Below are positions 1-33,407 of a stretch of DNA of 64,000 bases, one piece after another. The stretch covers positions 101,308,001-101,372,000 of the forward strand of contig OX597822.1 in the NCBI GenBank assembly GCA_951406725.2, given 5' to 3'. The stretch's first letter is position 1. Every line of letters starts with the position of its first letter. The translations under genes and the position numbers were made by a program. Below the pieces are notes generated by a model. The model did not search any database. It had not been told where the DNA came from and saw only the letters and a list, made by a program, of their open reading frames with translations. This DNA is from Octopus vulgaris (Eukaryota).

Positions 1-45
<45 letters not shown>

Positions 46-123
46 GTATATATATATATATGTATATATATATATGTATATATATATATGTATATATATA
101 TACATATATATATACATATATAT

Positions 124-1160
124 GGCCCGAAACCGTCGAGAAGCTTAACGAATTTCACACTCTTATAAATGGGCTCAACACAAACATTATTTTCACAATG
201 GAATACAGCCCTCAACAAATTCCCTTCCTCGACATCCTCATTAAAATTCACAACAAAAAAATAGAAACAGACATATACTACAAGCCCACAGACTCCAAGC
301 AATACCTCCCTTTCAATTCATGCCACCCTAGACACGTTAAAATTAACATTCCCTACAACTTAGCCAAGAGAATTTGCACTATAGTCTCCAATAAAAACAC
401 CCGTCTCTTACGTCTACAAGAACTCAAGGGCACATTAACAAGCAGGGATTACCCCACGTCACTAATTGACAATGGGATCCAACGCGCCCTAAAACTCAGC
501 ACGCAGGAACTTAGACGCCCTAAACCTGTTACATCGAAACCCCATACTCTACCATACATCTCTACACACAACCCCCTCAACAATGAAGCTTTTGACACCA
601 TCCTCCAGAACATTCCTGTATTACAAAAGGACCATAGAATGAACCAAATCCTCCTAACACACGAAATCATAAAGAGCAAAAGGCAACCCAAATCATTGAA
701 AACCATCCTAACAAATGCCAAAGTACAGCCAACCACAACAACTAAACCCACAGTAAACAAATGCAATAGACCCAACTGTGGTATATGCATCAACCTAATA
801 GAAGGTCCGGAATTCCTTTTTAAACAAGGACAACGTTTCACAGTAAAACACAACTTCACATGCGCATCAGAAAACCTAGTATATGTCTTAACTTGCTCGG
901 GATGTAATGAACACTACATAGGCCAAACAAAAAATAGCCTCCGCCAACGCATGACTGTCCACAGATCCCAAATAAAAATACAGGAATATAGAAAAATAGC
1001 ATTTAGTGCACATATTGATACCTGTGCCGCACAACTCCATCCCAATTTTAGAATCTTTCCCCTCTACAAATTTAAAGACAATGCCACTCATACCCAGCGA
1101 ATAACCATGGAATCCCACCTTATTAATAAATACAGACCACTTCTAAACACATGCCCCTAA
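124..1160 (+). CDS. Penelope-like element ORF, 5'-truncated: C-terminal RT (palm end/thumb), Cys-rich linker and GIY-YIG endonuclease
   Basis: Uninterrupted frame with PLE RT motifs ([27 protein letters not shown]), linker CNRPNCGIC and GIY-YIG motif [19 protein letters not shown]...LRQRMTVH...E...LN. The listed ORF start (60-123) is only (TA)n. Confidence 0.9.
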
Positions 1161-7840: not shown

Positions 7841-8837
7841 ATATATGTACATATATATTTAAAGGACAGTTTCAGAAAAGAAGACTTGAAGTGACACTAG
7901 CGCTTAACACCAAAGGAAAACGTCTACGGTAGTTGCTCCCAAACAGCTGAGCTACTTTCGACTATTGTTATCAACAACTGAAGGGTGTCACTCGTGTTCA
8001 TCCTGGCGAAACAGGAAGCAGCTTAGAACCACTTATAAAAAAAGACTTATGAGTAATGTTGATTGACGCATCTAGATGCATGTATACCTAGGCATACATA
8101 CTTAATGACGTGTCATTACATATACATATAATTGTATGCGCGTATGTGTGTGTAGAATTTACATACATGCATTTTTTTCACAACTAAGTTAGTAGACTTT
8201 CTGTTACTCAAACTATCATTTTTTGCCTCTATTAAAAACTTTTAAGTTTTCCTTCACCAAACCTCATGATATTGTTTCTAATAAATCTTGATTTTTATGA
8301 CTATACCAACTATGATGTCTCTCTGCACCCAGAGCCCTAGCCCTAACAGATACTACCCTCTGTTCTCTCAGCCTTATATATACATGGGATTTGATAAACT
8401 AGTCTATAAATTAAAACTGACTCCATAAAAACAAAAAGTCAGTGACAGGCGGAGTCTATAACAATTTATATCTTGAACATTCAGTAACATCTAAACTGGA
8501 GTGAGGCAGCATGTTCTTTGTCTATCTCCTTAATTTCTTGGAGATTTTTGGTACAATTATACTAATGTGCCCATCTGTTCTAATTTAATTAAATTCTATG
8601 TTTTTGTGCAGTTGGAGATTGCTCTGCATTTTAAATTGATGTAATGATTGCATTGTTCAATTAAATGGAGTTGCATGAAAAGATCGTACTGCATTACCTC
8701 TGATGGATATCCTTGTTGCTTATTTTGATTTTAATCACCTTACTTTGAAATTGTATGGATAATGCCGTACTAAATTCTGGTGCCTCAACTTAAGTACCAT
8801 ATTCATCTGCATCTAAATTTTTGCTGAAACCCTGAGT

Positions 8838-8905
<68 letters not shown>

Positions 8906-9244
8906 AATAATAAATATTAGGGAATGAATCCAAATTTAAAGGGAAAAATCAGATTTAGGGTTAAATCCAATTTTATAGTAAAATATTATATAATATAATT
9001 CGAGACAAAACCACTATTTTAAAATCAAACAAGGAAAGACTTAATCAATACATAAAATTTTAATATAAATTAAATAAACCGCCACTACAATTGTTTCATA
9101 TATATATATATATTCATATATAATACGTGTATATATGTGTGCTTGCGTGAGTGCATATATATATGTTGATTCGCCATGTTGATTCGCTAGCTTCTGCACG
9201 CATTTTTTCTTTCCTTGTTTCTCTCCGTGTTTCTTTTCTGTGTA

Positions 9245-9282
9245 TCTTTCTGTTGAAGAGCGTAGGCTCGAAACGTAAAAGA
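9245..9282 (+). ncRNA. Minimal type I hammerhead-like motif with variant core CUGUUGA (second copy at 11467-11504)
   Basis: UCUUU-CUGUUGA-A-GAGC(GUAG)GCUC-GAAAC-GUA-AAAGA: stems I and II pair, palindromic ACGU stem III. Confidence 0.6.
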
Positions 9283-9411
9283 CTTGTTTTATTTATATTC
9301 CTGAGCGCCATACTAATGCAATTGTTTGTTTGTATTCCACCTGCCTTCGTCTTTTGTTTATTTTCATAAAGCTTTCCGTTATATATATATATATATATAT
9401 ATATATACTAA

Positions 9412-9736
9412 AAAGGGTAAAGACACCCTTCGATCATGAAGGACAATGGGATTGCTGCAGCTAGAGAGATCCCCTCCGGGGCAAGTTTGTTTTTGCGGAA
9501 GGCCAGCGATCACCCATGCATATCAAACTTCCCTCCTCACGGGACCGATGTTACCCCCGGGAAGGGACAAAGGCCGATACAGCTTGGCACCAGTGGTGCC
9601 GCAGCTAATTTCCACAGCTGAATGAACTGCAACCAATGTGAAATAAAGTGTTTTGCTCAAGAACACGACACACAGCCCGACTCGGCAATCGAACTCAGTT
9701 ACCTCACGAGGTAACCACTGTGCCATGCGTCCTCAC

Positions 9737-9737
<1 letters not shown>
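9412..9737 (-). mobile_element. tRNA-derived SINE (A-related subfamily); duplicate at 11627-11952, relative at 22234-22505 (+)
   Basis: Shares the TTGAGCAA..CACTTTATTTCAC body and the CATGA.CGAAGGG.GTCTTTACCCTTT tail with the 22234 copy. Confidence 0.75.
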
Positions 9738-9774
<37 letters not shown>

Positions 9775-10045
9775 CAATAATAATAAAGGGTAAAATTAAT
9801 TAATAATTCCACCAAGTAGTATTCGGCATGTTAAAAGGACCATTTTCGGTAAACTTAAACAATATTTTTTTATAATTAGGAGTATAATTATAATTAGGGT
9901 TCAGCAAAAGATTTGCTTCACCACATACCGAACTTATAGTAGAAGAAAAAGCTAGGTTTTTTGGCTGCTATTTCTAAAGTTCGGTATGTGGTGAAGCAAA
10001 TTTTTGCTGAACCCTAATTATAATTATACTCATAATTATAAAAAT

Positions 10046-10081
<36 letters not shown>

Positions 10082-10168
10082 TACCGTGTTTCTGACGTGA
10101 AATTGCTACCCAGGTTTCGGTTAAACGAATTTTCCATGCTGACGATAAACATAGGATAATTCATTCAC

Positions 10169-10239
<71 letters not shown>

Positions 10240-10416
10240 AATCAAGGAACGGCCATAATAGGCCATTCACCCACTAGAAATAACAGCCAAAGCTTTAACC
10301 GCAAAATAACTTTAATTCCGTAAACCAGGAGAAAATTAAAAAAACATTTACCCTGTAATTTCTTATACGATGCAAAATTTATATTCTACAAAATTTTTTT
10401 TGCCACCCTATATTGA

Positions 10417-10453
<37 letters not shown>

Positions 10454-11056
10454 TATATATATGCGTGTGCGTGCGTATGTGTACAATGTATAATTATAAG
10501 TGTATATGTACGTGTGTGTTTAAGAGTGGGTGGTGGGTTATGCAAATGCATGATTGTGCTTTTGCTCGTGCCAGGCCAAACCAACACCTCAGAATCAAAT
10601 ATATGATCATCAGACTAAACAACCACATATTTATATCGTTAGAACGACATTATGAAATGTGTTTGTCCTTCCTCGTTTCTATGAATGATGCTTGAATGGT
10701 CGGACAAATACGTTCACATTATAATCACCACCACCCTGTGTCTATTGTAATAGTGATTACTTAATCATCACAGTTCTAGAAAAGAAAATTTAGGTTAATG
10801 AGTCCCCTTGAGATTCTCCATGTCATGGGAAGATTTGAACCGCCGACTACACTCTAACAAACCGATTGCCACTTTTGCTTTTGATGTAACGAGATTTAGC
10901 AGCGCCATGTTATCTGTTTATAAGCTTGTAGGCTGGCCTATTGTTAACTTTATTCGGCGTGCTTTGAAATTGTATGGATAATGCCGTACTAAATTCTGGT
11001 GCCTCAACTTAAGTACCATATTCATCTGCATCTAAATTTTTGCTGAAACCCTGAGT

Positions 11057-11126
<70 letters not shown>

Positions 11127-11951
11127 AATAATAAATATTAGGGAATGAATCCAAATTTAAAGGGAAAAATCAGATTTAGGGTTAAATCCAATTTTATAGT
11201 AAAATATTATATAATATAATTCGAGACAAAACCACTATTTTAAAATCAAACAAGGAAAGACTTAATCAATACATAAAATTTTAATATAAATTAAATAAAC
11301 CGCCACTACAATTGTTTCATATATATATATATATTCATATATAATACGTGTATATATGTGTGCTTGCGTGAGTGCATATATATATGTTGATTCGCCATGT
11401 TGATTCGCTAGCTTCTGCACGCATTTTTTTCTTTCCTTGTTTCTCTCCGTGTTTCTTTTCTGTGTATCTTTCTGTTGAAGAGCGTAGGCTCGAAACGTAA
11501 AAGACTTGTTTTATTTATATTCCTGAGCGCCATACTAATGCAATTGTTTGTTTGTATTCCACCTGCCTTCGTCTTTTGTTTATTTTCATAAAGCTTTCCG
11601 TTATATATATATATATATATATATAAAAAGGGTAAAGACACCCTTCGATCATGAAGGACAATGGGATTGCTGCAGCTAGAGAGATCCCCTCCGGGGCAAG
11701 TTTGTTTTTGCGGAAGGCCAGCGATCACCCATGCATATCAAACTTCCCTCCTCACGGGACCGATGTTACCCCCGGGAAGGGACAAAGGCCGATACAGCTT
11801 GGCACCAGTGGTGCCGCAGCTAATTTCCACAGCTGAATGAACTGCAACCAATGTGAAATAAAGTGTTTTGCTCAAGAACACGACACACAGCCCGACTCGG
11901 CAATCGAACTCAGTTACCTCACGAGGTAACCACTGTGCCATGCGTCCTCAC

Positions 11952-11989
<38 letters not shown>

Positions 11990-12262
11990 CAATAATAATA
12001 AAGGGTAAAATTAATTAATAATTCCACCAAGTAGTATTCGGCATGTTAAAAGGACCATTTTCGGTAAACTTAAACAATATTTTTTTATAATTAGGAGTAT
12101 AATTATAATTAGGGTTCAGCAAAAGATTTGCTTCACCACATACCGAACTTATAGTAGAAGAAAAAGCTAGGTTTTTTGGCTGCTATTTCTAAAGTTCGGT
12201 ATGTGGTGAAGCAAATTTTTTGCTGAACCCTAATTATAATTATACTCATAATTATAAAAAAT

Positions 12263-12300
<38 letters not shown>

Positions 12301-12387
12301 TACCGTGTTTCTGACGTGAAATTGCTACCCAGGTTTCGGTTAAACGAATTTTCCATGCTGACGATAAACATAGGATAATTCATTCAC

Positions 12388-12454
<67 letters not shown>

Positions 12455-12631
12455 AATCAAGGAACGGCCATAATAGGCCATTCACCCACTAGAAATAACA
12501 GCCAAAGCTTTAACCGCAAAATAACTTTAATTCCGTAAACCAGGAGAAAATTAAAAAAACATTTACCCTGTAATTTCTTATACGATGCAAAATTTATATT
12601 CTACAAAATTTTTTTTGCCACCCTATATTGA

Positions 12632-12668
<37 letters not shown>

Positions 12669-14152
12669 TATATATATGCGTGTGCGTGCGTATGTGTACA
12701 ATGTATAATTATAAGTGTATATGTACGTGTGTGTTTAAGAGTGGGTGGTGGGTTATGCAAATGCATGATTGTGCTTTTGCTCGTGCCAGGCCAAACCAAC
12801 ACCTCAGAATCAAATATATGATCATCAGACTAAACAACCACATATTTATATCGTTAGAACGACATTATGAAATGTGTTTGTCCTTCCTCGTTTCTATGAA
12901 TGATGCTTGAATGGTCGGACAAATACGTTCACATTATAATCACCACCACCCTGTGTCTATTGTAATAGTGATTACTTAATCATCACAGTTCTAGAAAAGA
13001 AAATTTAGGTTAATGAGTCCCCTTGAGATTCTCCATGTCATGGGAAGATTTGAACCGCCGACTACACTCTAACAAACCGATTGCCACTTTTGCTTTTGAT
13101 GTAACGAGATTTAGCAGCGCCATGTTATCTGTTTATAAGCTTGTAGGCTGGCCTATTGTTAACTTTATTCGGCGTGCACTTCCCACGTCTAGCTGTTATT
13201 TAACTCAAACTAGGAAATAATTAGTAGCTTTTGATCTGCTAATAGTTGATTTCGTTAATAGTGTATATAATTTAGCATTATCTACAGCGGAGACCCACAT
13301 TTAAAATTATCATTAAATATATTCGGCTACATGAAAACTTTTAGCCACCATCAATAATTCAAGGGGGGGACTATGGCAGTTGGTTCCGGTATTTTTCTCT
13401 CTATATATCTTTAGTTTGCGTTCTGCATTGTTGGACATATTCACTGTAAGAGGTGATGCGTTATATATAATGCATTAAACGACTTATCGTATAGTATCTT
13501 TTTCATTTTTAATAAGCTGGTTTAATATTTCTCTTCTATTCCCAAACTTTTTACATGGCGTCTCAATCTCTATCTCTATCTCTCTATTTCTGCCTCTATT
13601 TCCTTATTTTTCGTCTTTCTTACTCTTTCTCTCTTCTATCTCTTTGATAATCGTCTTTCTACAGAGGAAGGAAACATGAAGACTAAGTACTACAAAATGT
13701 AAAACACATTAAGATTTTTCTTCTAAGAATGAATCTCAATTGAGAATTTTCCTTTGGTTTCTAAATATATATTGGTTGTTGTTTCTTCAGAAAGACTTAA
13801 TGTTTTTTTTCTCGTTTTTAATAATATTATTGATTTAGAGAGGAAAAAAAAAAGGATGCTCAACCGTTCATTTGTTTGGTTCTCAATTGAATATATTCAG
13901 ATATTCACTGTTATTTTTCTTCATTTATTCCTTCAGATCATCTACCAACCATTGTGTTTGAACTTTGTATATATTTCATATACATTTAGGAGTTTTTGTT
14001 TAAAGTTCCTTTATTTTTCTTTGAAAGTTTTGAATTTATGCTTTGTTGCTTCTTTACACAAAGAAAACGCTTTATGTTGCCAGTGTATCAAATTTGTTAC
14101 ACATCTTATCTGGACATTAAATGTTCTTGTGTGTATTTTGTGTGCATATACA

Positions 14153-22544: not shown

Positions 22545-22764
22545 CATATGCATGTATTTATATGTATATATATGTATATATATATATATATACATACATA
22601 TATATATTAGAGGGAAACCACTATGTGGACACCCATATGCTAGAAATAGATCCGCTACGGTCTCACCACCAAGAAATGTTCTCAAGAAAAAATTTAGGCA
22701 AAACAACCAAAACGTAATCGAGCAAGACAATATATATATATGAAAGAATGGAGTTGAACGACGA

Positions 22765-22884
22765 ATTAACAAAATTCCTTTATTTTCGACGTATGTTTCG
22801 AAGGCTGCATATTCCTAATTGCGAAGGAATAAGGAGTATATTATGCCGCTTTCTCATCAGGAAAAGCAAGGAACTTATGCCAAC
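22765..22884 (-). ncRNA. Type I hammerhead ribozyme (intact core)
   Basis: Reverse complement reads stem I UUUUC, CUGAUGA, stem II GAA.GC.GCAUA/UAUGC.GC.UUC, GAAAC-AUAC-GUC, GAAAA. Confidence 0.8.
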
Positions 22885-23044
22885 ATCATTGTTATATATA
22901 TAATTGTTATATATATATATATAATTGTTATATATATAATCATCATTGTTTAACGTCTGCCCTCCACGCCGGCATGGGCCGGACAGTTTGACTGGGGACC
23001 GGCAAACCAGGTAGCCACACCAGGCTCCAATCTGATCCTGCAAA

Positions 23045-23335
23045 GGTGATACTTTACAAAGAAATAACTACAGGGCTTTCAAACTGCTAGATCAGGGGAT
23101 GAAGGTCACGGAGGGGGTCATAGCCCAACTAATTAGGGAGAGAGTCTGCTTAGATGAGATGCAGTTCGGGTTTTGTGCCAGGTAGAAGCACCATTGATGC
23201 TATAGTCCTGGTAAGGCAACTGTGGAAGAAATACCTAGCCAAAGATAAACCCCTATACTTGGCTTTTGTTGACTTGGAGAAAGCCTTTGACAGAGACCCC
23301 GATCCCTCATCTAGTGGGCAATGCGGAAACTAGGG
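23045..23335 (+). mobile_element. RTE-clade LINE RT fragment
   Basis: Translates, with a frameshift, to MQFGF.PGRSTIDAIVLVRQLWKKYLAKDKPLYLAFVDLEKAFDR. Confidence 0.75.
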
Positions 23336-24320
23336 ATATATATGTATATGTTTGTGTGCCCATAGAAAATAGACATTTGATGATAATGATGATGATGATA
23401 TCCACTAAGCTTCTTTCCTCAGCCCACTTTATGAAACAGTTACAGACTGGATGCACCTAAGGATATTTTCTGTACATCTTGACTTCTGTAGCAACTTATG
23501 AACTTCCTATAGTTGGATGAATGTTGAACATATAAGACAAACTGCAATACACTGCACACGTTTGAACTTATTGACTATTGATCCACCATTTTTAGATCTT
23601 TCTTCCATACAGGCAAAGATTACAGAACTTTATCAAGGCAGATTTCTATGTCCAGATGTTCTTCCAGTCATCAACTCTTATTTGTTTTTCAACTGAGGTA
23701 TTTTTCATTTTAGTGTTAATCACAAATCCACTAAACTACAGAATATTTGTTCACTGAAGAAAGTAAACAATGTCACCGTTTTTTTTACTCATATTCATTT
23801 GTTTGTATACAAATACATGTATATGAGTAATCATATATCTCCTCTACAGCAAGAAATTTTTCAGTTCTGGCCCCTTCTCTCTCCCATAGCATAAAGCCAT
23901 CTCCTCTACTGTAGATTTATTCATACTATGCTATATATCAACCTCACTAGTGCTGGTGCCACAAAAAACAAAAGTACTCAGTACAAACTGTAAAGTGGTT
24001 AATATTAGAAAGAACATTGGCTCCCGTGCCAGTGGCATGTGAAAAGGACCATTCAAGCGTCATCGTTACTAGTGTCGCCTTACTGGCACATGTACCGGTG
24101 GCACGTGAAAAACAACATTCAAGCGAGGTCGTTGCCAGTGCTGCTAGACTGGCTCCTGTGCTGGTAGCACGTAAAAAACACCTTTTGAGCATGGTCGTTG
24201 CTGGAACTGCCTGTCTGGCCCACGTGCCGGCGTGGAGGGCGGACGTTAAACAATGATGATTATATATATAAGAATTATATATATATATATATATATAACA
24301 ATTATATATACAACAATGAT

Positions 24321-24440
24321 GTTGACATAAGTTCCTTGCTTTTCCTGATGAGAAAGCGGCATAATATACTCCTTATTCCTTCGCAATTAGGAATATGCAG
24401 CGTTCGAAACATACGTCGAAAATAAAGGAATTTTGTTAAT
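24321..24440 (+). ncRNA. Type I hammerhead ribozyme (intact core; predicted cleavage after C24417)
   Basis: CUGAUGA at 24345-24351, GAAA at 24406-24409, GUC at 24415-24417. Extended stem I (UUCCUU.GC.UUUUC / GAAAA.UA.AAGGAA and beyond) and a branched stem II. Confidence 0.82.
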
Positions 24441-24608
24441 TCGTCGTTCAACTCCATTCTTTCATATATTTAAATTAAAAACAAAACAAAAAAACATACA
24501 AATTTCCACACGAAAGCACGTAACTTCAAACGTGTCTTCTCTGATGTGAATTTGCTACCCAGGTATCAGTTAACCGAATTATCCATAACAAGATAATTCA
24601 TTCAACTA

Positions 24609-24667
<59 letters not shown>

Positions 24668-28953: not shown

Positions 28954-30045
28954 TTTGCTTCACACTACTTTCCATCCTTAATAATGAAATTTGGTAGATC
29001 CAAAAGTTAAACACACAGACACACACACAGATACACACACAGACACACACACAGATACACACACAGACACACAAGTTGAGTTTTATATATACAGATTTCT
29101 CATCGGGGATTTCAGGGGAGAGTTTCAGGGAGTCGCTGGCGATGTATCGTGATGATCAAAAATCCGGCCTGCTAAAATTTGGTTAAAGTGATTCAAACTG
29201 CAGACTCAACGCAAAATGGTCACATTTAATTCAAAGCGTTAAAAATGTTATGAAAACAATTTGTATGTGTTCACAAAGTCCAAACGATTAATACGAAAAC
29301 ATCTTCCAGGCTACATCCCGAAAATTCATTTCTTTGCCGAATTTCTACAATGTTTACGGCGATTCGTTTTTATATCTTGATTTTTTTATTTTTCATGTAA
29401 TTTACGCATGCTTGCACGCGTGGTGAACACAGTTAACGTCAAACAGCTGACTGAGTAAAGTTCACTATTCAATGTATGGGATAAGGCCTAAACAAACACA
29501 TTATCGATTTTTGCACTTGCGAGATGAATTTCGGAACAGAAATAGCTTAGTTCAATTTTCATTCGCCTAAACTTTAAGTGGCCCATTTTTGGTGGCTCTA
29601 CGATTTGTTGGCTAGGAGATGTGCCGGGAAGTTAAACACACAGACAAACACAGACACACAAGTTGAGTTTTATATATATAGATATATATATATAAAATTC
29701 AGAGGATTGACCACTAAAAGTGGACAGCCTGTATGCTAGATATAGACGTCAAATTCGCCATTTTCCACGGAGAATATGTTCTCAAGAAAAAAATTCAGCT
29801 AAAACCAAAGCGTAAAAATAAGCAAGACAAATGAAAATGAAATATACATATATATGTATATATATATTTGAGTAGTTGAATGAATTATCTTATCAAGGAC
29901 AATTCGAATTAACCGATACCTGGGTAGCAAATTCACATAAGAAAAAACACGGTTGAAGTTACGTGCCTAGGGCATATATTACGTGCTTTCGTGTGGAAAT
30001 TTGTATGTTTGTTTTAAAAATATAAATATATGAAAGAATTCTTTC

Positions 30046-30668: not shown

Positions 30669-33407
30669 TTAGTTTTTCAGGTCTGAATCACCACTACCTT
30701 GTTTTTCAGCTGATTCTGTTAAAAGCGCTCCACTTAACGAGTCAGATTGTCTCTTTCCATAATCAGGCATATATGCTCCACCTAACGTGTCAAATGGTCT
30801 CCAGTCACTATCCATGTCATATTGTTTCTTAACATTCCGCGGTATAAATGCTTTTCCTAACGATTCAAAATGTCTCTTTCCACCAGGCGGAGAAATTTCT
30901 CCCTCTAGCGTGTCAAATTGTCTCTTTCCACCAGGCGGAGTAATTTCTCCCTCTAGCGTGTCAAATTGTCTCTTTCCACCAGGCGGAGTAATTTCTCCCT
31001 CTAGCGTGTCAAATTGTCTCTTTCCACCAGGCGGAGAAATTTCTCCCTCTAGCGTGTCAAATTGTCTCTTTCCACCAGGTGGAAAAATTTCTCCCTCTAG
31101 CGTGTCAAATTGTCTCTTTCCACCAGGCGGAGAAATTTCTCCCTCTAGCGTGTCAAATTGTCTCTTTCCACCAGGCGGAGAAATTCCTCCCTCTAGCGTG
31201 TTAAATTGTCTCTTTCCACCAGGCATAAAAGCTCCACCTAACGAATCGAAATTCCTCTTTCCACCTGGCATAAAAGCACCACCCAAGGAATCGAAAGTAC
31301 GTTTTCCACCTGGCATAAATGCTCCACCTAACGAATCGAAAGTACGTTTTCCACCTGGCATAAATGCCCCACCTAACGAATCGAAAGTACGTTTTCCACC
31401 TGGCATAAATGCTCCACCTAATGAATCGAAAGTACGTTTTCCACCTGGCATAAAAGCTCCACCTAACGAATCGAAAGTACGTTTTCCACCTGGCATAAAT
31501 GCTCCACCTAACGAATCGAAAGTACGTTTTCCACCTGGCATAAATGCCCCACCTAACGAGTCGAAGTTTCTTTTACCACCTGGCATAAAAGCCCCGCCCA
31601 AAGAGTCAAAGTTTCTCTTTCCACCTGGCATAAAAGCACCACCCAAGGAATCGAAAGTACGTTTTCCACCTGGCATAAAAGCACCCCCTAACGAGTCAAA
31701 GTTCCTCTTTCCAACTGGCATGAAAGCACCACCCAAGGAATCGAAAGTACGCTTTCCACTTGGCATAAATGCACCCCCTAAGGAATCAAATGAACGTTTT
31801 CCATCGGAATCATCCAATGAATCAGCACTGCTCTCAGCAGATAGACGTCTTCCATTTAAGGAATGACATGAACGTTTTCCCAAGCAACCACTCGGAAGTG
31901 GTAAAATTCCTCCACCCAAGGAATCGAAAGTACGTTTTCCTCCTGGCATAAATGCACCACCCAATGAGTCGAAGTTTCTTTTTCCACCTGGCATAAATGC
32001 CCCACCTAATGAGTCGAAGTTTCTTTTTCCCCCTGGTGGCATAAATGCACCACCTAATGAATCGAAGTTTCTTTTTCCCCCTGGTGGCATAAATGCCCCA
32101 CCTAATGAATCGAAGTTTCTTTTTCCCCCTGGTGGCATAAATGCCCCACCTAATGAGTCGAAGTTTCTTTTTCCACCTGGTGGCATAAATGCCCCACCTA
32201 ATGAGTCGAAGTTTCTTTTTCCCCCTGGTGGCATAAATGCCCCACCTAATGAGTCGAAGTTTCTTTTTCCACCTGGCATAAATGCACCACCTAATGAGTC
32301 GAAGTTTCTTTTTCCCCCTGGTGGCATAAATGCCCCACCTAATGAGTCGAAGTTTCTTTTTCCACCTGGCATAAATGCACCACCTAATGAATCGAAGTTT
32401 CTTTTTCCACCTGGCATAAATGCACCACCTAATGAATCGAAGTTTCTTTTTCCACCTGGCATAAATGCACCACCTAATGAATCGAAGTTTCTTTTTCCAC
32501 CTGGCATAAAAGCTCCACCTAAAGAGTCGAAGTTTCTTTTTCCACCTGGTGGCATAAATGCCCCACCTAATGAGTCAAAGTTTCTTTTTCCACCTGGTGG
32601 CATAAAAGCTCCACCTAAAGAGTCGAAGTTTCTTTTTCCACCTGGTGGCATAAATGCCCCACCTAATGAATCGAAGTTTCTTTTTCCACCTGGCATAAAA
32701 GCTCCACCTAAAGAGTCGAAGTTTCTTTTTCCCCCTGGTGGCATAAATGCACCACCTAATGAATCGAAGTTTCTTTTTCCACCTGGCATAAAAGCTCCAC
32801 CTAAAGAGTCGAAGTTTCTTTTTCCACCTGGTGGCATAAATGCCCCACCTAATGAATCGAAGTTTCTTTTTCCACCTGGCATAAATGCCCCACCTAATGA
32901 GTCGAAGTTTCTTTTTCCCCCTGGTGGCATAAATGCCCCACCTAATGAGTCGAAGTTTCTTTTTCCCCCTGGTGGCATAAATGCCCCACCTAATGAGTCG
33001 AAGTTTCTTTTTCCACCTGGTGGCATAAATGCCCCACCTAATGAGTCGAAGTTTCTTTTTCCCCCTGGTGGCATAAATGCCCCACCTAATGAGTCGAAGT
33101 TTCTTTTTCCACCTGGTGGCATAAATGCCCCACCTAATGAGTCGAAGTTTCTTTTTCCCCCTGGTGGCATAAATGCCCCACCTAATGAGTCGAAGTTTCT
33201 TTTTCCCCCTGGTGGCATAAATGCCCCACCTAATGTGTCGAAGCTTCTTTTTCTATGTAGCACGTGCATTCCAATTGGTGAATATTTTACGGAATCTGAA
33301 AGCCTTTTATTCATATGTTTGCTGTGGGAATTCAAATAGGCTACACCGAATTCATCATTTTTCATACCTTCTGTCGGTCCCTTACCCATCGATTGTCGCT
33401 TCTCGTC
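30669..33407 (-). CDS. FCAP: Terminal coding exon of an FCAP-like (feeding circuit-activating peptide; pedal peptide/orcokinin-related xFDSLGG) neuropeptide precursor
   Basis: 912 codons plus stop after the acceptor ttttttaattgcag|GAC (phase 0). About 51 peptides bounded mostly by KR, most with a G-KR amidation signal. DSLGG core as in molluscan FCAPs. The listed TTG start is intronic and there is no signal peptide in this exon. Confidence 0.88.
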   Translation of the reverse strand, partial: DEKRQSMGKGPTEGMKNDEFGVAYLNSHSKHMNKRLSDSVKYSPIGMHVLHRKRSFDTLGGAFMPPGGKRNFDSLGGAFMPPGGKRNFDSLGGAFMPPGGKRNFDSLGGAFMPPGGKRNFDSLGGAFMPPGGKRNFDSLGGAFMPPGGKRNFDSLGGAFMPPGGKRNFDSLGGAFMPGGKRNFDSLGGAFMPPGGKRNFDSLGGAFMPGGKRNFDSLGGAFMPPGGKRNFDSLGGAFMPGGKRNFDSLGGAFMPPGGKRNFDSLGGAFMPPGGKRNFDSLGGAFMPPGGKRNFDSLGGAFMPGGKRNFDSLGGAFMPGGKRNFDSLGGAFMPGGKRNFDSLGGAFMPGGKRNFDSLGGAFMPPGGKRNFDSLGGAFMPGGKRNFDSLGGAFMPPGGKRNFDSLGGAFMPPGGKRNFDSLGGAFMPPGGKRNFDSLGGAFMPPGGKRNFDSLGGAFMPPGGKRNFDSLGGAFMPGGKRNFDSLGGAFMPGGKRTFDSLGGGILPLPSGCLGKRSCHSLNGRRLSAESSADSLDDSDGKRSFDSLGGAFMPSGKRTFDSLGGAFMPVGKRNFDSLGGAFMPGGKRTFDSLGGAFMPGGKRNFDSLGGAFMPGGKRNFDSLGGAFMPGGKRTFDSLGGAFMPGGKRTFDSLGGAFMPGGKRTFDSLGGAFMPGGKRTFDSLGGAFMPGGKRTFDSLGGAFMPGGKRTFDSLGGAFMPGGKRNFDSLGGAFMPGGKRQFNTLEGGISPPGGKRQFDTLEGEISPPGGKRQFDTLEGEIFPPGGKRQFDTLEGEISPPGGKRQFDTLEGEITPPGGKRQFDTLEGEITPPGGKRQFDTLEGEISPPGGKRHFESLGKAFIPRNVKKQYDMDSDWRPFDTLGGAYMPDYGKRQSDSLSGALLTESAEKQGSGDSDLKN
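30873..33245 (-). repeat. Coding tandem repeat, 45/48-bp units in three blocks (28 + 13 + 7 units)
   Basis: Block 1 is 33245-31932, block 2 is 31793-31209, block 3 is 31208-30873. Counted from the translation and checked against coordinates. Confidence 0.95.

What the first reader, a model, noticed from the sequence alone, without database searches (positions are those of the whole stretch)
22736..24469. Pair of intact long-stem hammerhead ribozymes in inverted orientation bracketing a 1.2-kb composite cassette
Seen: ~250-bp inverted arms (22736-22986 and 24211-24469), each containing a (GAT)n-tailed retroposon end, a TA tract and a complete type I hammerhead (CUGAUGA, GAAA, GUC, roughly 20-bp stem I with an internal loop, stem II with a nested hairpin). 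The spacer holds an RTE RT fragment and unrelated DNA. Inference: a transcript of either strand would carry a self-cleaving end and could fold back into long dsRNA, consistent with a retrozyme/PLE-derived unit that captured or inverted neighbouring DNA. These are the best-formed ribozymes in the window and are larger than typical minimal PLE hammerheads.
Basis: partly seen in the sequence, partly recalled or inferred. Interest (0 to 1): 0.75.

Follow-up and report, generated by a model that had tools for sequence, protein, structure and literature searches.

The report
Penelope insertion carrying edited intron RNA
The two mirror-image ribozyme motifs are the usual paired ends of a common Penelope-type jumping gene and are predicted to be folded off, but between them lies a 1.3-kb copy of an intron of a mitochondrial-ribosome gene from another chromosome, with a cluster of A-to-G changes that is likely a scar of RNA editing, so an edited host transcript was likely written back into the genome.

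Summary
The inverted arms and both hammerhead motifs are real, but they are not a retrozyme. They are the ends of a high-copy Penelope-like retroelement (RT plus C-terminal GIY-YIG). Head-to-head pairs with one short and one tailed arm are its normal insertion product: 44 of the first 100 listed copies are in such pairs. Both ribozymes are predicted inactive here (2-bp helix III, broken loop-III palindrome, arm-to-arm hairpin). The unusual part is the spacer. It is a copy of an MRPS22 intron on another chromosome (7% diverged), bounded by the arms, in pre-mRNA sense with the left ribozyme. Both arms share a genome-unique junction and a rare loop mutation, so both came from one chimeric template. 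The captured retroposon tail carries 9 A>G changes in 28 adenosines (11 in 336 elsewhere; permutation p 1e-4), inside a predicted intron duplex: likely an ADAR scar. Best reading: capture of an edited host pre-mRNA by the Penelope RT. The donor chimera is not in the assembly, and ages leave room for a two-step route. Host capture between Penelope ends is published; this scan also noted it, and an A>G scar, in other genomes.

The parts
22729..22739 (.). Left TA tract, likely the insertion target; a target-site duplication cannot be read
   Evidence: Sequence; family ends abut TA tracts
22740..22888 (-). Short arm: 5'-truncated pLTR end of the Penelope-like family with type I hammerhead (core 22860-22854, predicted cut after C22788), no tail
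22889..22939 (-). TA/AACAAT stutter junction between the PLE stub and the host retroposon tail; repeated in the right arm and found nowhere else
   Evidence: 2 matches in the genome, both arms
22940..23041 (-). (GAT)n retroposon 3' tail copied from the MRPS22 intron, with 9 A>G changes on the RNA-sense strand (22960-62, 22967, 22970, 22979-80, 23000, 23038)
23042..23337 (+).
   Evidence: 6379 candidates
23338..23944 (-). Low-copy intron DNA; the only full-length paralog found is G000:C6 (85% BLAST identity, 6.4% substitutions)
23945..24225 (+). SINE-like repeat with 66-bp units, shared with the C6 intron; C6 homology stops here
24226..24261 (+). Second, truncated copy of the G-rich tail, joined to the 66-bp unit through a 6-nt microhomology (about 20 nt of looser similarity)
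24262..24316 (+). Second copy of the TA/AACAAT junction
24317..24466 (+). Long arm: pLTR end with type I hammerhead (core 24345-24351, predicted cut after C24417)
24467..24610 (+). About 140-nt PLE 'tail', which in full-length copies is the sequence just 5' of the ORF
   Evidence: L110
24611..24673 (.). Right TA tract, likely the insertion target

Best explanation
This is one head-to-head insertion of an endonuclease-positive Penelope-like element whose two arms were likely reverse-transcribed from one chimeric RNA, an MRPS22 intron transcript that likely had been A-to-I edited and ran into a short PLE stub. Shown: family identity, short-plus-tailed arm geometry, intron origin of the spacer, shared unique junction and loop mutation, A>G cluster. 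Inferred: the PLE protein nicked both strands of a TA tract and primed two cDNAs, one at the short and one at the long start site of the stub. The short-start cDNA ran about 1.5 kb through ribozyme, junction, edited tail and intron. The long-start cDNA stopped after about 390 nt, and the two 3' ends joined by microhomology at 24225-24230. The donor chimera (a PLE stub in the TA tract beside the tail, in an MRPS22 allele or in an earlier copy of the intron) is not in this assembly. The ribozymes were passengers, were not cut in the template, and are predicted inactive now; the locus is likely inert. My confidence by step: PLE pair 0.95, one shared template 0.85, ADAR scar 0.75.
For: Family: 1032 candidates, 1722 exact 25-mer matches, RT and C-terminal GIY-YIG ORFs upstream of the motif. 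Geometry: 17 other head-to-head pairs in 26 loci, 16 of them short+long, inner gaps -15 to +49 nt; 22 pairs among the first 100 listed copies (counted by hand); the 8 widest of the 22 hold only PLE body and are all short+long. Source: C6 homology runs from the TA tract to the right junction and not into the flanks. Flanking C6 exons match MRPS22 (E 1e-7 and 4e-14), and pre-mRNA sense equals the sense of the left ribozyme. One template: junction pattern 2 of 2 genome matches at the arms; loop-III C in both arms, 0 of 40 other scored copies, 9 genome matches in all; five A>G changes are in both tail copies. Editing: 9 of 28 A against 11 of 336 (Fisher 2e-6; sliding-window permutation 1e-4; the three other transition types p 0.12-0.68). 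Other tail copies have mean 1.0 and at most 4 A>G (27 copies). The G-rich tail 24-mer is unique. In the folded C6 intron the tail pairs with an inverted tail 1.4 kb upstream, and all 9 sites lie in or at bulges of that duplex. 0 of 9 changed A have a 5' G against 5 of 16 unchanged, the direction PMC5625713 reports (too few to be significant). Contigs of other runs hold the window-type spacer (organisms A, B, C, D) and the G-rich tail (A, B, C) at 0-2% difference.
Against: No donor chimera was found. Ages fit only loosely: arms differ at 5 of 239 columns, while unique spacer DNA differs from C6 at 36 of 566 (Fisher p 0.013). The gap shrinks if only window-lineage changes are counted (9 of 459, against 18 on the C6 side; p 0.29 versus arms). 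0 of 69 PLE alignment rows show a comparable A>G burst, so edited templates are not usual for this family. Two of the nine A>G sites abut the stretch that resembles the 66-bp unit and could be conversion (7 of 26 remain, p 8e-5). The RT fragment, which has another inverted partner 3.5 kb away, shows no A>G excess. No listed contig spans the cassette, and the one piece over the right junction has under 31 letters on one side. Covariation of the ribozyme stems is not above control.
Confidence: 0.62

Rival explanations
1. Two RNA passages. A non-LTR RT first retroposed the edited intron RNA from its own (GAT)n tail to another locus. A PLE stub later landed in the TA tract beside it, and the PLE then moved that chimera here. 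The scar would come from the first passage and say nothing about the PLE template. This differs from the best explanation only in when the editing was fixed.
For: The copy ends exactly at a retroposon tail, the natural priming end for a non-LTR RT; spacer-C6 divergence is about three times arm-arm divergence; several indels separate the two copies.
Against: It needs a further lost locus; polarised window-lineage changes are compatible with the arms' age.
Confidence: 0.2
2. Local origin: the intron copy was already at this site, and a PLE insertion added the left arm; the right arm was completed by template switching onto the left junction, with loss of DNA to the right.
For: The age gap; both arms stop at a 5' truncation point seen in 3 other copies; the stutter junction looks like repair synthesis (my inference); earlier scan notes describe DNA patches at PLE junctions.
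Against: C6 homology ends exactly at the right junction and does not resume in the flank; the right arm has a tail that the left lacks, so it is not a plain copy of the left; short+long is the single-event norm.
Confidence: 0.12
3. One reading: a retrozyme-like unit whose two active ribozymes release a self-cleaved or circular RNA and which can move as a cassette.
For: Core nucleotides are intact in both arms; PLE ribozymes can be protein-assisted (PMC11167929), so folding models may understate activity.
Against: The motifs lie on opposite strands, so one transcript has one ribozyme and no monomer is released; the cassette is single-copy; the loop-III palindrome is broken and the arms pair with each other.
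Confidence: 0.04
4. Assembly artefact.
For: TA tracts flank the unit; no listed contig spans it.
Against: The arms differ from each other; the geometry matches the family norm; spacer and left tail pieces occur with 0 differences in another run of organism A and with 1-2% in other organisms.
Confidence: 0.02

Closest known systems
EN+ Penelope-like element insertions with inverted 5'-truncated pLTR, one-sided tail and (TA)n bias (PMC8557442, passages read; PMC11167929, parts 1-2 of 4 read)
   Same: RT plus C-terminal GIY-YIG ORF, hammerhead in the pLTR, inverted truncated copy, tail on one side, two 3' ends matching two RT start sites, AT-rich targets.
   Different: The tail is about 136-160 nt, not 30-40 bp; the space between the arms is host intron, not element body; no CX2-5CxxC linker before the GIY-YIG in the copies read.
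Host DNA framed by Penelope pLTRs in Adineta vaga (PMC3846280, passages read)
   Same: Non-element sequence, including intron-containing DNA, carried between pLTRs in trans; microhomology joins.
   Different: Here the donor intron is identified, the chimeric junction is present twice, and the cargo has a strand-specific A>G cluster. That paper favoured an antisense, self-primed template; the scar here is on the sense strand.
Minimal type I hammerheads of metazoan PLEs (PMC4209133, parts 1-2 of 4 read)
   Same: 1-2 bp helix III with palindromic loop in the family, large helix II, dual motifs on opposite strands 100-700 bp apart already reported, low monomer activity.
   Different: Longer stem I (20 bp) and a nested hairpin in stem II; no unpaired base between position 9 and G10.1; palindrome broken at this locus.
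Non-LTR retrozymes (PMC7229834, passages read; bioRxiv 10.64898/2026.07.22.740005, part 1 of 5 read)
   Same: Type I hammerhead, PLE kinship.
   Different: Those are same-strand tandem repeats of 150-450 bp that yield circular RNAs; this is a single-copy inverted pair from a coding PLE.
ADAR hyper-editing of inverted repeats (PMC5625713, passages read)
   Same: Clustered A>G in a duplex of neighbouring inverted repeats, G depleted upstream; very high in octopus.
   Different: That work describes RNA; here the pattern is fixed in genomic DNA.

Membership tests
EN+ Penelope-like element (C-terminal EN) | Single ORF with RT and C-terminal GIY-YIG endonuclease in the family | tested here: met
   ORFs of 555-741 aa with YRDD RT motif and C-terminal GIY-YIG-type motifs upstream of the ribozyme. 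Pfam GIY-YIG only E 0.0055, below the curated cut-off; no Pfam hit for the longer ORFs; 666 homologs at E<=1e-20 without informative names. Motif names are partly recalled.
EN+ Penelope-like element (C-terminal EN) | pLTRs, direct and inverted, with tail on one side | tested here: met
   L110 shows inverted short pLTR, direct pLTR+tail, ORF, pLTR+tail; 16 of 17 other pairs and 8 of 8 wide pairs are short+long.
EN+ Penelope-like element (C-terminal EN) | Hammerhead motif in the pLTR | tested here: met
   Core present in both arms and across subfamilies.
EN+ Penelope-like element (C-terminal EN) | Telomerase-like RT phylogeny | tested here: inconclusive
   A 30-sequence profile found no PDB match at E<=1; no tree with reference PLEs was built.
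Neptune clade | CX2-5CxxC linker upstream of GIY-YIG | tested here: not met
   No such cysteines in the ORFs read. The resemblance of the RT to Neptune is recalled, so I do not file it there.
Non-LTR retrozyme | Same-strand tandem repeats, each with a hammerhead | tested here: not met
   Opposite strands, two copies, single-copy cassette.
Non-LTR retrozyme | Abundant linear/circular monomer RNA | not testable with these tools
   Only contigs were laid; they cannot show RNA ends or strand.
Active type I hammerhead | Conserved core C3-A9, G12-A14, UH | tested here: met
Active type I hammerhead | Stable helix III as monomer or through a palindromic dimer | tested here: not met
   2 bp; dimer duplex -2.1 against -7.0 kcal/mol in the family.
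Active type I hammerhead | Covariation of stems | tested here: inconclusive
   93.7% of cells paired, 2 of 38 pairs with two-sided change; 41-147 of 500 shuffles reach the observed values.
Active type I hammerhead | Self-cleavage after C17 | not testable with these tools
   Needs in vitro transcription.
ADAR hyper-editing scar | Strand-specific clustered A>G | tested here: met
ADAR hyper-editing scar | Located in a predicted dsRNA | tested here: met
   Intron MFE pairs the tail with an inverted tail upstream; 6 of 9 sites paired, 3 in bulges of that duplex.
ADAR hyper-editing scar | 5' G depletion | tested here: inconclusive
   0 of 9 against 5 of 16; too few sites.
ADAR hyper-editing scar | Same sites edited in present-day donor RNA | not tested
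   Needs raw RNA and DNA reads of one individual.

The most novel reading that the evidence does not exclude
A Penelope RT copied an unspliced, ADAR-edited host pre-mRNA twice from its two internal start sites in one event. The locus would then be a fossil showing that head-to-head PLE insertions arise by twin priming on a sense-strand nuclear RNA, and that germline A-to-I edits in host transcripts can be fixed in the genome by PLEs.
Probability: 0.4. Interest if true: 0.7.

Novelty: new variant of a known kind. Interest (0 to 1): 0.48.

Why it matters
How PLEs form inverted ends and keep introns is still open; PMC8557442 asks for mechanistic work, and PMC3846280 suggested an antisense template. 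A cargo with a known donor, a duplicated chimeric junction and a strand-specific editing scar reports on the template's nature (RNA, unspliced, sense strand) and points to a genome-wide test. It would also show editing in germline nuclear RNA feeding back into DNA. It is one locus with no sign of function, and the ribozyme pair itself is ordinary.

Tried and rejected
Rfam scans gave no hammerhead match. Covariation on 24 distinct copies was not above control. A donor with the same junction was sought and not found. A G-rich tail subfamily was rejected: 7 matches of the AGGG form against 5221 of the AAAA form, and the 6 others lack the remaining A>G changes. Spacer-wide editing was rejected: outside the tail A>G 11 and U>C 12. 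Editing bursts in PLE bodies: none in 69 rows. Clade naming by Pfam, homolog names and PDB failed. No RNA holder was listed, which is no evidence on expression. One guessed-RNA run with a small share gave 31-58-nt contigs within one letter of the G-rich tail; these cannot be assigned to this locus. No empty-site joint appeared among the listed joints (338 not shown; TA tracts break contigs). A target-site duplication cannot be read in TA tracts. A host gene in the window: 80 of 87 ORFs scanned gave transposon domains and one sub-cut-off hit only; short exons would be missed. Six paper searches (listings only, apart from the papers named) showed no title describing an editing scar in PLE-captured host RNA or this family. 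Subscription papers are not covered and I opened no supplements; the family lists of PMC8557442 and PMC4209133 could hold this family.

Full report
Observation. The arms are real: 22729-22986 and 24211-24476 align at 94% over 266 columns. Each holds a (GAT)n retroposon tail, a TA/AACAAT stretch and a type I hammerhead core, with the predicted cut after C24417 and C22788. Rfam has no hammerhead match here. The window is G000:C9:101308001-101372000 of a 2.8-Gb animal genome.

The ribozyme belongs to a Penelope-like family. The 156-nt piece has 1032 candidates, and a 25-mer of it has 1722 exact matches. [quoted passage not shown] Copy L110 has the published layout: inverted short pLTR, direct pLTR with tail, ORF, pLTR with tail. 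Copies end either at a short site about 50 nt after the cut or about 136 nt further on, both in TA tracts. Pfam support is weak (E 0.0055; none), so the assignment rests on motifs and architecture. The clade is not determined.

Inverted pairs are the norm. In 26 other loci, chosen as best BLAST matches, 17 hold a head-to-head pair: 16 short+long and 1 long+long, with inner gaps of -15 to +49 nt. Among the first 100 places listed on C1 I count 22 head-to-head pairs within 5 kb and one tail-to-tail neighbour. The 8 widest of the 22 contain only PLE body and are all short+long. The window has a short left and a tailed right arm, so 22740-24610 is one ordinary insertion unit. Inverted pLTRs with a one-sided tail are described in PMC8557442 (passages) and PMC3846280 (passages), two RT start sites in PMC11167929 (parts 1-2 of 4), and opposite-strand ribozyme pairs in PMC4209133 (parts 1-2 of 4).

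Ribozyme state. The catalytic fold is 3.9-4.8 kcal/mol above the MFE and makes up 0.4% and 0.06% of the ensembles; a family copy scores equally low, so this is not special to the locus. Helix III has 2 bp. The family loop is an 8-nt palindrome suited to a dimer; both window arms break it (0 of 40 other scored copies do), and the dimer duplex falls from -7.0 to -2.1 kcal/mol. In a cassette transcript of either strand 113-114 of 115 ribozyme positions pair with the other arm. Covariation over 24 distinct copies is not above the shuffled control. Activity is untested; PMC11167929 found a PLE ribozyme that needs the protein.

The spacer. The low-copy part has one full-length paralog, on C6 (40 of 132 candidates scored). 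Homology runs from 22905 to 24228 and not into the flanks. The C6 stretch lies between two consecutive exons that match MRPS22. Pre-mRNA sense is the window minus strand, the sense of the left ribozyme. Substitutions are 87 of 1207 columns, with several indels. The right boundary is a 6-nt microhomology between a 66-bp repeat unit and the second tail copy.

One template for both arms. The junction pattern has two genome matches, the two arms. The loop-III variant has 9 genome matches; the 7 others lack this junction. Five A>G changes in the tail are in both copies. The right arm has a tail that the left lacks, so it is not a plain duplicate of the left. The simplest account is a chimeric RNA (intron, tail, TA, PLE stub with long tail) copied twice from the two start sites. 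This step is inferred; no donor chimera is in the assembly.

The A>G cluster. Against C6, 9 of 28 sense-strand adenosines in the tail read G, against 11 of 336 in the rest (Fisher 2e-6). A sliding-window permutation gives p 1e-4; the other three transitions give 0.12-0.68. Outgroup tails assign 8 to the window lineage; 27 other tail copies have mean 1.0, maximum 4. It is not a subfamily. In the folded C6 intron the tail pairs with an inverted tail 1.4 kb upstream; 6 of 9 sites are paired and 3 sit in bulges. None of the 9 has a 5' G, against 5 of 16 unchanged sites, the direction reported in PMC5625713 (passages) but not significant. Against this reading: two sites could be conversion from the neighbouring repeat (7 of 26 remain, p 8e-5), and 0 of 69 PLE rows show such a burst.

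Age and reality. Contigs of four runs hold the window-type spacer with 0-2% differences (organisms A, B, C, D) and the G-rich left tail in A, B and C, so the copy predates their split. A contig of organism B covers 24188-24254 with one difference, but has under 31 letters on the tail side and does not count as a bridge. No listed piece spans the cassette. The arms differ at 5 of 239 columns; unique spacer differs from C6 at 36 of 566 (p 0.013). Polarised, the window lineage has 9 and the C6 lineage 18 changes in 459 columns, and 9 of 459 is compatible with the arms (p 0.29). A one-passage route is allowed but a two-passage route is not excluded.

Comparison. Host sequence between pLTRs is described in PMC3846280. 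Retrozymes are same-strand tandem repeats (PMC7229834, passages; bioRxiv 10.64898/2026.07.22.740005, part 1 of 5), which this is not. Earlier unreviewed notes of this scan report host DNA between inverted Penelope arms in sharks and an A>G scar in a Penelope body in a ray; I had reached both readings before that call and do not count them as support. Six paper searches listed no title on an editing scar in PLE-captured host RNA; supplements were not opened.

Verdict. The ribozyme pair is ordinary and likely silent. The cargo is a traceable, likely edited host intron, a new variant of known PLE capture. Interest 0.48.

Noticed in passing
L042, L110, L135-L142; window 24467-24610: The family's tail is about 136-160 nt, several times the 30-40 bp given for other PLEs; it would mark two RT start sites far apart.
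   Followed up: partly
window 24317 / 22888; L002, L003, L023: Several copies are 5'-truncated at the same point, at the base of the ribozyme's long stem I, which may be an RT stop or an RNA 5' end.
   Followed up: no
L113-L127, alignment A3 columns 35/82: Older subfamilies have a perfect 6-bp base of stem II, while the youngest subfamily has an A-C mismatch there.
   Followed up: partly
window 29842-30045 and 10080-10170 (repeated at 12310-12451): Tail-only remnants of related PLE subfamilies in TA tracts, without a ribozyme core.
   Followed up: partly
window 22610-22729 and 29671-29830: Two copies (72% identical) of another short TA-inserted element, each directly left of a PLE piece.
   Followed up: no
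window about 8800-10500 and 11050-12700: A tandem duplication of about 2.2 kb, judged from repeated microsatellite patterns; real or assembly duplication not checked.
   Followed up: no
window 3-1157 (+): 385-aa open frame with a GIY-YIG domain (Pfam E 8e-7), probably another PLE family.
   Followed up: no
window 30865-33253: 2.4-kb minisatellite of 45/48-bp units.
   Followed up: no
L108-L127: The PLE ORF has a long asparagine-rich insert between RT and endonuclease, as described for Adineta Penelope elements in PMC3846280.
   Followed up: no
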